A DNA stretch of 63,818 bases, counting the filler, from Kipferlia bialata (Eukaryota), in NCBI GenBank assembly GCA_003568945.1. It is 4 parts of 4 records of this genome, joined end to end, with 100 filler letters (N's around TTAATTAATTAA, not from the genome) between each part and the next. Parts side by side here need not be neighbours in the genome. Positions count along the whole stretch, not along the records: positions 25,963 to 57,951 come from BDIP01000094.1; 3 more parts are not named here. One strand, written 5' to 3'. The number at the start of each line of letters is the position of its first letter. Position 1 is the first letter of the stretch. The translations under genes were made by a program, and so were the position numbers. A model generated the notes under the pieces. The model saw only the letters and a list, made by a program, of their open reading frames with translations, ran no database searches and was not told where the DNA came from. This document shows, one piece after another, positions 49,603-52,113 of this stretch.

Positions 49603-50420
49603 GAGTACTATGTAGACAAGCACCAGTCCCTTGACTACGAGGTTGCCAGGCAGTACATGTATGGATACATCGACAACCATGACGGGGTATGTATACTATA
49701 ATTGATGTGACATGATGGAGTATACATACATAATATGGTGGATGGTTGCTCCTTATGTACCCCCATACATTGTCACTCATTCCAGCATGTCACTGGCCTG
49801 TACACCGGGTTAGACATGCCGTACCCATATGGGTGTGAGGACACCCTTTACAACACAGACATCAAGTGTGAGCACATGATACCCCAGTCATTCTTCGGAA
49901 AGGTACATACTATACATAGCAATAGTACTTGTACTGCAATAATCATTGTGTGTGGCAAGGTATTAATACATACTAGGCGTTTACAATTATGTTTGGTACG
50001 TGGTATCCTTAGCTGAACCAACGGCATACACACACACACACACATACATACACACACACATATATATATATATATATGTATACATATATCTAAGTACCAT
50101 ATGTACAGTCTCACCCAGCACGAGCCGATGCGGTCTGACGTGCACCACCTGAGACCATCCTACATGATGGCAAACTCAGCAAGGTATGTACAGATATATG
50201 TATATATATATATTCATAGTATGGACTTGGGAGAGTATGGATATATAGCATACTGTTCGTCAATTGTGTCATTGAGAGTAGTATGCGATTACCTTTTTAT
50301 GCCTTAACCCCAGGTCCAACTACCCCTATGACGTCATTGCTGACAAGGACGCATACAAGGTACAGGGAGTTAGATGCAATACAGTATATATATACATATA
50401 TATGCATACATATATATACA

Positions 50421-50456
<36 letters not shown>

Positions 50457-52113
50457 GGACAAGGTCGCATACAAGGTACAGGGAGTTGGATCTATATACT
50501 ATTGGTAGTGTAGGTCACTAGCAACAGCAGTGTCTCTCCTCCTCAGTGCTGAGTTGGTCTGAGACATATTTATATGTACATTTCAAGATATCCACCTATG
50601 CCTACTGTAGACGAGGTGTTGTACATATACATGTGTCTGATACTTAGCACTATATACCCCTGACCCCAGTGGTACCAGAAAATATATGCATGTGTCTCAG
50701 GCTTTGTACTGTACATATATATTGATACATACATATTTCAAGCTAACCACTATGTATTCTGACCCCAGTGGTACCAGCAGCGCACTGTCACCACTGTCTC
50801 TCCCCCTGAGGCAGAGAGGGACGACTGGTCCAGGGTGCAGAAGGGGTATGCATGGTACCCAGAGGCCGGTGAGATATAGCTAGACCAGATATTGCTAGTA
50901 GTAATGATATGTATATGTGTGGATTGCATGACTATTGAGGAAGATGGATGATGCATGGTACCCAGAGGCAGGTGAGTATGAAGGGGTATGCATATATATA
51001 AGAAGGGGTATGTTAAGGGGTATGCATATATATACGAAGGGGTATGTTAAGGGGTGTGTATGGTACCCAGAGGCAGATGAGATATCGCTAGACTAGATAT
51101 AGCTCAGAGGATATGATATATGTATGTGTGTGTTGCACTCGTGTATATACATTGAGCAAGAGGGATGAGTGAACTGGGTGGCAGAACTGTTACCCCTGGA
51201 AGTAACAGTAAATATTGTATTGTATACTAGAGTCAGTATTACATGCAATATTCACCCCTCACCCCAGCTGCCAGAGGCACAGTCGCCAGGGGGGTCCTCT
51301 ACCTCTACACGATGTACCCTAAGTACATACACGGAATGCACAACGTTGGAGACGTCAGGTACACCTATCACATGTATACAACTGTATCCAGATGACTCTC
51401 TACTGTGGTGTGCTACCAACTCATATACATAAGTGGGTGTAAGTTCACTGTTGGTGTTCCCCCTCTATTATCCAACCCCAGCATGTTTGTGGACTGGTGC
51501 GAGGAGTACCCCTCCACCCAGATGGACATGGACAGGAATGACAGGTACACACTGTATATAGGGGGCATGTAGTGTATATGTAGTATATGTAGTATATGTA
51601 GTATATACAGTACCCCTCCAGCCAGATGGACATGGACAGGAATGACAGGTACAGGGGAGCAATATGGTATTATATATAGTGTGTATATATGGTGCATATG
51701 TATGGTGTATATTTATGAGATATATGTATCAGTGTTCAGTTGTTAAATTTAACAGCCTCTCTCTGGGAGATTATATGTGGGGAGAGAAGTGGCAGGCTGT
51801 ATGTACCCATCACGTGTCTTACCCCAGTGCTGAGCAGTACCAAGACCCACACCAGATTACTAATGTTCTCTTTAGTGTATATATACGTGTATATTTGGTA
51901 ATACAAGTACCTCACCCCAGTGCTGAGCAGTGCCAGAATACATACTAGATGGATTACTGATACTCTCTTTAGTATATATATACATCTATATATATGTATG
52001 TGTGTAGTATATTGTGTGACCTTCACCCCAGTGCCGAGCAGTACCAGGGCAACCGCAACCCCTATGTGGATGACAACACCCTCTGTCGCAGGGCATATGC
52101 AGACATGATATAG
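49603..52113 (+). CDS. Endonuclease I family (EndA/Vvn/Bsn-like His-Me nuclease); 8 exons recovered, start exon not found
   Basis: Spliced: EYYVDKHQSLDYEVARQYMYGYIDNHDG|HVTGLYTG..DIKCEHMIPQSFFGK|HEPMRSDVHHLRPSYMMANSAR|SNYPYDVIADKDAYK|WYQQ..WYPEA|ARGTVARGVLYLYTMYP..|MFVDWCEEYPSTQMDMDRND|SAEQYQGNRNPYVDDNTLCRRAYADMI*. Diagnostic motifs EHxxP, DxHHL, NxxRSN, GxVAR and QGNRNP are present. Confidence 0.9.

What the first reader, a model, noticed from the sequence alone, without database searches (positions are those of the whole stretch)
50342..52050. 'Echo' splice junctions: introns of the nuclease gene contain diverged copies of their own exon-intron borders
Seen: donor junction GACAAGGACGCATACAAG|GTACAGGGAGTT (50342) is recopied at 50458. 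Acceptor CTGACCCCAG|TGGTACCAG appears at 50660 before the true one at 50759. TGGTACCCAGAGGC.G|GTGAG occurs at ~50853, ~50956 and ~51061. The CAGATGGACATGGACAGGAATGACAG|GTACA junction at ~51519 is repeated at ~51623. CACCCCAG|TGC.GAGCAGT.CCA occurs at ~51820, ~51913 and the true ~52024. Donor echoes always follow the true donor and acceptor echoes precede the true acceptor, so the outermost sites must be used despite near-identical inner decoys. Inference: a slippage/repair process centred on TA-rich intron cores duplicates junctions. Introns with both echoes could be removed in two nested steps (inner then outer), and this is a possible route to intron growth or gain.
Basis: partly seen in the sequence, partly recalled or inferred. 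Interest (0 to 1): 0.75.

Follow-up and report, generated by a model that had tools for sequence, protein, structure and literature searches.

The report
Buried spare splice junctions in Kipferlia
In three genes of the protist Kipferlia bialata, many introns hold short copies of the neighbouring exon end, usually with its splice signal, and the one transcript examined skips them; they are likely leftovers of small local duplications that lengthen introns, and their mostly silent differences from the working exon may record other alleles.

Summary
The echoes are real and genomic: DNA contigs run through the nuclease echoes without differences. One RNA contig joins the outermost sites in all three echo-bearing nuclease introns, although six inner sites are intact and about as strong. 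The pattern extends beyond the finding: 13 of 29 introns in the endonuclease I, MATE and TPR genes carry echoes, against at most 1 of 143 in four other genes, and echo introns are three times longer. Junction-centring and polarity need no special process: with exons and introns this short, 53% of random ~100-nt duplications cross one junction, and whole-exon copies would be purged. TA-rich breakpoints were not enriched. Nested splicing is unshown; 8 of 13 echo introns are one-sided. New here: where an exon has several echoes, it differs from all of them only at silent sites (9:0), which suggests exon and echo come from different alleles. The bias comes mainly from the TPR gene and is absent in the nuclease. 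The scan noted a similar echo pattern in a sea urchin (e1-7787398). Verdict: new variant of known intragenic duplication; interest 0.5.

The parts
49603..52113 (+). Endonuclease I (PF04231) gene, exons 49603-49686, 49786-49902, 50119-50183, 50314-50359, 50769-50868, 51268-51358, 51482-51544, 52032-52113; 5' exon lies outside the stretch laid
   Evidence: RNA contig joints and pieces; three exons hit PF04231 in order, each below cut-off; model equals the last 216 aa of P0002
50458..50491 (+). Donor echo of exon 50314-50359 (18 exon nt plus 16 intron nt; GT at 50476)
50660..50678 (+). Acceptor echo of exon 50769-50868 (AG ends 50669; 9 exon nt)
50951..50977 (+). Donor echo 1 of exon 50769-50868 (GT at 50972)
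50980..51027 (+). Two 13-14 nt exon-fragment copies inside a 34-nt tandem repeat
51049..51137 (+). Donor echo 2 of exon 50769-50868; GT lost (AT at 51077); intron part still aligns (82% over 89 nt)
51609..51653 (+). Donor echo of exon 51482-51544 (40 exon nt, 1 difference; GT at 51649)
51818..51842 (+). Acceptor echo 1 of the last exon (AG ends 51827)
51911..51936 (+). Acceptor echo 2 of the last exon (AG ends 51920)
52617..57223 (-). MATE transporter gene (18 exons modelled) with echoes in 6 of 17 introns
56619..56945 (-). Array of five copies of the first-exon tail in MATE intron 1 (56945-56921, 56870-56829, 56775-56746, 56720-56687, 56631-56619); two copies flank an NN and may be one
54987..56114 (-). 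MATE echoes: donor 56114-56092, donor 55712-55690, acceptor 55329-55306, acceptor 55030-54987
53280..53408 (-). Two MATE donor echoes (53408-53386, 53302-53280) in a 92/106-nt tandem unit
61595..63818 (+). TPR-protein gene (exons 61677-61758, 62212-62255, 62621-62672, 63094-63164, 63218-63292, 63605-63696) with echoes at about 61595, 61866, 62020, 62110, 62332, 62499, 62756, 62908, 63005, 63345, 63511, 63763
   Evidence: exons 2-6 match P0001; no RNA evidence for this gene

Best explanation
The echoes are genomic, same-direction copies of an exon end, usually with its splice signal, likely left by local duplications of about 80-150 bases, and the nuclease transcript is spliced at the outermost sites, probably because sites are chosen across the short exon. 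Shown: the copies, their polarity, their clustering in 3 of 7 modelled genes, the longer introns, outer-site splicing in the nuclease. Inferred step 1: duplications arise by break repair or template switching with end joining. Inferred step 2: most such units cross one junction by geometry, and copies inside an exon or of a whole exon are purged, so half-exon echoes remain. Inferred step 3: exon-centred recognition buries them. Inferred step 4, about even odds: the working exon and its echo descend from different alleles (copying from a diverged homolog, or later recombination that swapped the exon), which would explain why they differ mainly at silent sites.
For: Genomic and outer-site splicing. 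Annotated proteins P0001 (exons 2-6), P0002 and P0003 follow outer sites. Six intact inner nuclease sites score at or above the used site with matrices trained on 142 introns of the other four genes. Nearest spacings 79-146 nt with multiples; 0 of 28 copied segments cover a whole exon; polarity 28 of 28. Geometry: 53% one-junction, 11.5% intronic, 8% exonic, 18% whole exon or intron, 9% marginal. All 21 inner-site isoforms built in a script shift the frame or stop early. Silent bias: 25 silent to 15 replacement differences, dN/dS 0.21-0.23, P=0.004-0.011 against 'neutral echo plus silent-only exon'; at 161 sites covered by two or more echoes the exon differs from all echoes at 9 sites, all silent, while differences among echoes are 5 silent to 8 replacement; P=0.0005, or 0.006 counting one per group. 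MATE replacements are conservative (mean BLOSUM 1.57 against -0.56, n=7, P=0.0009). Repair background: PMC8516963 section 8 says metamonads lack Ku-dependent end joining and fornicates lost Rad51A; its supplement lists PolQ, Dmc1 and Rad52 genes for K. bialata. PMC9225289 passages: exon definition favours the sites closest across the exon, intron definition the inner ones.
Against: Only one RNA contig for one gene; contigs drop rare variants, and decay of faulty transcripts could hide inner-site use (though inner acceptors in the last intron would put the stop in the last exon). The run is only guessed to be RNA. With a 12-nt acceptor matrix, 6 of 7 acceptor echoes are weaker than the used site. 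The silent bias is uneven: TPR 12:2, MATE 11:9, nuclease 2:4. The annotation of P0001 starts in the echo at 61862, so which copy of TPR exon 1 is used is unsettled; without that exon the overall test gives P=0.05-0.10 and the shared-site count is 6:0, P=0.006-0.014. No second allele or close paralog is seen: no variant letters (8 loose ends not shown), and each of three protein searches returned only the gene itself; the next TPR relatives are 27-38% identical. Intron parts differ as much between sibling echoes as between echo and true site, so intron divergence does not support the allele step; only 4 of 21 intron sides reach P<0.05, which fits interrupted copies as well as tandem ones. Why only three genes carry echoes is unexplained. 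Tests were chosen after seeing the data.
Confidence: 0.68

Rival explanations
1. Echoes are working splicing elements kept by selection: inner pairs are removed first (nested splicing), or inner sites act as decoys or helpers. The echo stays frozen while the exon drifts at silent sites.
For: 12 of 13 donor echoes keep GT and 6 of 7 acceptor echoes keep AG; their summed scores exceed a random-substitution simulation (P<=0.0002) and ordinary intronic GT/AG sites (P=0.004, 0.00006). Inner nuclease pairs would be 179-272 nt introns. A frozen echo also explains the 9:0 silent asymmetry.
Against: 8 of 13 echo introns are one-sided; no inner joint; at about 3% decay per site, keeping GT/AG is expected without selection; the simulation ignores slippage indels; 143 other introns splice with at most one echo.
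Confidence: 0.12
2. Plain slippage duplication from the same DNA molecule followed by neutral decay; the silent bias is a small-sample effect or reflects fast silent change in exons.
For: The nuclease gene itself fits this (2 silent, 4 replacement, dN/dS 0.5-0.6). Several units align through their intron parts (72-82% identity). No second allele is present in the DNA run. This differs from the best explanation only in step 4.
Against: TPR gene 12:2 (P=0.001-0.002) and shared differences 9:0; conservative MATE replacements.
Confidence: 0.35
3. Echoes are remains of whole duplicated exons that once worked as alternatives and later lost one half.
For: Explains coding-type divergence and retained splice consensus. 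In 3 TPR exons the upstream and downstream echoes nearly tile the exon (parts 7-39 and 44-82; 1-28 and 17-52; 1-32 and 31-86).
Against: 0 of 28 segments is a whole exon; it would need alternative duplicates at most exons of one gene and loss of all of them.
Confidence: 0.08
4. Assembly artefact: two haplotypes or repeats joined in tandem.
For: Exon-conserved, intron-diverged, silent-biased pairs are what two alleles look like; an exact 53-nt repeat flanks an NN at 56742; the TPR region has no read support here.
Against: Unbroken read-derived contigs at even depth cross the nuclease echoes and the MATE echoes below 56700 with 0 differences.
Confidence: 0.04

Closest known systems
Repair-mediated duplications (Pace et al. 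2009, PMC2671141; abstract and section 10 read)
   Same: Short, closely linked copies ascribed to break repair that can include splice sites and parts of exons.
   Different: There 4 of 824 donors were partial exon/intron pieces; here such pieces sit in 13 of 29 introns of three genes. Their one tested intact exon copy showed no coding constraint; here differences are silent-biased. Repair hallmarks were not shown here.
Internal gene duplication and intron gain by tandem genomic duplication (Gao and Lynch 2009, not held, seen only as cited in passages of PMC3443670; Hellsten 2011, seen only as cited there)
   Same: Intragenic duplication creates spare splice sites and is tolerated through splicing.
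   Different: No new intron is seen; the copies lie inside existing introns, which grow, and the mRNA is unchanged.
Stwintrons, nested spliceosomal introns of fungi (PMC8469720 and others; search listing only)
   Same: An inner donor-acceptor pair inside a longer intervening sequence.
   Different: The inner unit does not interrupt any signal of the outer intron, so two steps are not required; most echo introns have no inner pair.
Exon-centric versus intron-centric proximity rule (PMC9225289, passages; Reed and Maniatis 1986 as cited there)
   Same: Competing sites of like strength; the pair closest across the exon wins under exon definition.
   Different: Here it appears in a metamonad with introns of about 100 nt, where the inner site would be expected to win, and with a reduced spliceosome (87 of 174 proteins; PMC6679479, passages).
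Sea-urchin 'exon echo' noted earlier by this scan (e1-7787398, unchecked AI note)
   Same: Exon ends copied head-to-tail into neighbouring introns of one gene.
   Different: Different lineage; the lines shown mention neither RNA confirmation nor a silent-site bias.

Membership tests
Local intragenic (repair-mediated or tandem) duplication | Direct copy close to an intact source, present in genomic DNA | tested here: met
Local intragenic (repair-mediated or tandem) duplication | Whole unit duplicated head-to-tail, intron part included | tested here: inconclusive
   some units align throughout; only 4 of 21 intron sides beat the null
Local intragenic (repair-mediated or tandem) duplication | Breakpoint hallmarks of strand-annealing repair (microhomology, empty pre-insertion site in a relative) | not testable with these tools
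   no related genome; flank TA test negative
Intron gain by tandem genomic duplication | Duplicated exonic AGGT used as donor in one copy and acceptor in the other, making a new intron | tested here: not met
   RNA joints use the donor and acceptor of existing introns; echoes lie inside them
Stwintron | Inner intron interrupts a donor, branch point or acceptor of the outer intron | tested here: not met
   outer GT and AG motifs are intact and apart from the inner units
Optional nested or recursive splicing | Inner joints or lariats in precursor RNA | not testable with these tools
   contigs only; none listed
Duplicated mutually exclusive exons | Both copies whole, each with acceptor and donor | tested here: not met
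   0 of 28 segments
Exon definition | Among sites of like strength, those closest across the exon are used | tested here: met
   3 of 3 nuclease echo introns in one RNA contig
Exon definition | Cross-exon complexes; choice depends on the site at the other end of the exon | not testable with these tools
   needs minigenes
Endonuclease I (PF04231), host gene | Profile match | tested here: met
   P0002 carries PF04231; single exons hit profile positions 91-109, 157-179, 222-233, each below cut-off

The most novel reading that the evidence does not exclude
Echoes are scars of recombination between strongly diverged alleles: exons, the only shared homology, seed strand invasion by a mismatch-tolerant Dmc1-only system, copying runs over the junction, and end joining leaves the other allele's junction in the intron. 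One genome would then archive extinct alleles, reveal cryptic sex and silent diversity near 20%, and supply thousands of natural splice-site competition tests showing exon definition in a short-intron metamonad.
Probability: 0.3. Interest if true: 0.78.

Novelty: new variant of a known kind. Interest (0 to 1): 0.5.

Why it matters
It shows introns growing in steps of about one intron length by copying their own borders. It gives natural paired-site tests of how a reduced spliceosome picks splice sites: outer sites win where short-intron rules predict inner ones. If the silent bias holds genome-wide, echoes would let allele diversity and recombination be read from a single genome of a lineage close to Giardia. 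Echoes also mislead gene annotation: P0001 starts inside one.

Tried and rejected
No whole genome is held, so no genome-wide count. No listed run is on record as RNA; X2 is a guess. No read evidence exists for the TPR gene or for the region above 56700. TA-rich breakpoints: not enriched. My idea that sibling echoes share intron sequence better than echo and true site: not supported, so intron divergence was dropped as evidence for alleles. Echo donors stronger than true donors: seen pair by pair, but reversed for acceptors and not significant against all true donors (P=0.45); dropped. Four codon states at one MATE leucine: a single hot site next to unchanged silent sites, not used as evidence beyond one count. 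Paralog as template: only self hits (1 of 7, 1 of 1 and 1 of 15 candidates), weak evidence because the searches are word-based and the annotation is fragmentary. Gene models are mine: began with one intron end off by one base (corrected by the predictor); one search held one mis-set junction in the 58-kb gene, one mis-set MATE exon start, and lacked MATE exon 1 (MATE corrected; the 58-kb junction left). The 143 control introns are predicted, not RNA-confirmed. Gao and Lynch 2009 could not be opened. Searches for a prior description listed none for this organism; I saw listings only, plus passages of PMC5874029, and most subscription papers are not searched. One supplementary file of PMC8516963 was unreadable; supplements of the other papers were not opened. 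No earlier scan notes exist on this genome.

Full report
Setting. The window is a gapped scaffold of an intron-rich eukaryote. Three window translations each found one protein, named by its source as Kipferlia bialata: endonuclease I P0002, MATE transporter P0003 and TPR protein P0001. No whole genome is held. Passages of PMC5874029 give 124,912 GT-AG introns for the species and do not mention such repeats in the 12 places shown.

Observation. The third copy at ~51061 has lost its GT. A junction-anchored score of 12 or more occurred in at most 0.1% of 3000 swapped controls, but at 5 of 14 nuclease, 6 of 10 TPR and 5 of 32 MATE junctions, against 1 of 238, 0 of 18, 0 of 24 and 0 of 6 in four other predicted genes. 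With MATE exon 1 added, 13 of 29 introns in the three genes carry echoes against at most 1 of 143 (P=7e-11). DNA contigs of run X1 cross the nuclease echoes, and the MATE echoes below 56700, with no differences at depth 420-486. X1 may be the assembly's source.

Splicing. One contig of run X2 (guessed RNA; 893 nt, depth 30.5) consists of the eight nuclease exons plus 123 upstream bases. Six GT-AG joints are listed and the seventh shows in the pieces; all three echo introns are cut at the outermost sites. Six inner sites are intact and score at or above the used ones with matrices from 142 other introns; a shorter acceptor matrix reverses this for the one nuclease acceptor it scored. All 21 inner-site isoforms tested shift the frame or stop early. 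PMC9225289 (passages) states that under intron definition the inner site is favoured and under exon definition the site closest across the exon. Outer use therefore points to exon-centred choice, an inference from one contig of one gene. Hidden inner use removed by decay is not excluded. Only 5 of 13 echo introns have intact echoes on both sides, so nested removal cannot be general; for those five it remains untested.

Origin. Copies of exon ends lie downstream and copies of exon starts upstream in 28 of 28 segments, none covers a whole exon, and nearest spacings are 79-146 nt. Random duplications of these sizes placed on the 120-exon control gene cross one junction in 53% of trials and are wholly intronic in 11.5%. 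Purifying selection against exonic and whole-exon copies (inferred) then leaves mainly echoes, so no junction-seeking process is needed. Echo introns have a median of 365 nt against 108 nt, and 127 nt after echo spacings are subtracted. Free ends of 29 echoes are not TA-enriched (P=0.25), though intron TA frequency is highest in the TPR and nuclease genes (0.18, 0.15; others 0.07-0.12). Intron sides beat a null in only 4 of 21 comparisons and are as diverged between sibling echoes, so TA-rich DNA either changes fast or was not copied. PMC8516963 (section 8, supplement rows) reports no Ku-type end joining in metamonads, loss of Rad51A in fornicates, and PolQ, Dmc1 and Rad52 genes in this species. 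This makes homology-seeded repair with error-prone joining plausible but does not show it. That Dmc1 can recombine mismatched DNA comes from the listing of PMC11514202.

The unexpected part. Exon-to-echo differences are 25 silent to 15 replacement over 514 sites (dN/dS 0.21-0.23; P=0.004-0.011 against a neutral echo beside a silent-only exon). At 161 sites covered by two or more echoes, the exon differs from every echo at 9 sites, all silent; differences among echoes are 5 silent to 8 replacement, about 0.03 per site (P=0.0005, 0.006 by group). Exon and echo thus look as if they diverged under coding constraint before the echo began to decay. The simplest reading is that they come from different alleles, either at the copying step or by later recombination across about 100 bases in a diverse population (inference). 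A frozen, functional echo would fit too. Against: the bias is 12:2 in the TPR gene, 11:9 in MATE and 2:4 in the nuclease; dropping TPR exon 1, whose annotation starts in an echo, leaves P=0.05-0.10 overall and 6:0 at shared sites; two MATE copies flanking an NN may be one; no second allele or close paralog was found; and the tests were chosen after seeing the data.

Comparison. It works like repair-mediated or internal gene duplication (PMC2671141, where 4 of 824 donors were partial exon/intron pieces). It is not intron gain by AGGT duplication (PMC3443670, passages), not a stwintron (listing), and not a set of whole duplicated exons. Five searches listed no description for this organism. An earlier scan note describes a like pattern in a sea-urchin gene; I did not test it.

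Verdict. Real, wider than reported, mostly explained by known processes. Two points remain open and testable: exon-centred site choice in a short-intron metamonad, and echoes as records of other alleles. Interest 0.5.

Noticed in passing
window 49483-49602: The nuclease RNA contig has 123 bases upstream of 49601 that are not in the stretch laid; a 19-base piece of them has no match in the window. The annotated N-terminus of P0002 is read from sequence upstream of the acceptor at 49602, so the true first exon is elsewhere and the 37-base poly-C run may hide a join.
   Followed up: partly
window 52033-52064: A second RNA-type contig, in a bin of depth about 345, matches only 32 bases of the last nuclease exon with unlike ends: likely a diverged nuclease paralog.
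   Followed up: no
window 61862-61904: The annotated protein P0001 begins at an ATG inside the first donor echo: an echo taken as an exon by annotation, or a real alternative.
   Followed up: partly
window 61595-61904, 62499-62791, 63511-63818: Upstream and downstream echoes of three TPR exons together nearly tile the exon (gap 4, overlap 12, overlap 2 nt), as if an old exon had been split by insertion of a whole new copy. Two other exons with echoes on both sides do not tile.
   Followed up: partly
window 56688-56796: An exact 53-nt repeat flanks an NN inside the MATE intron 1 array: possible assembly overlap.
   Followed up: no
window 26285-46647: Very large, intron-poor AAA_5 plus VWA gene with one open frame of 3289 codons; midasin-like by recall, not tested.
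   Followed up: no
window 87-25252: Predicted gene of 120 exons with one open frame and recurring propeller-like motifs (recalled resemblance, not searched); nearly free of echoes, with two weak candidates near 5143 and 10231.
   Followed up: partly
window 47900-49334: A ubiquitin-conjugating-type gene on the minus strand (name recalled from the translation) lies head-to-head with an SGF29 Tudor-like open frame (PF07039, E=6e-14).
   Followed up: no
window 49603-52113: Endonuclease I is mainly known from bacteria (recalled); its presence with seven introns in a metamonad may reflect old gene transfer.
   Followed up: no
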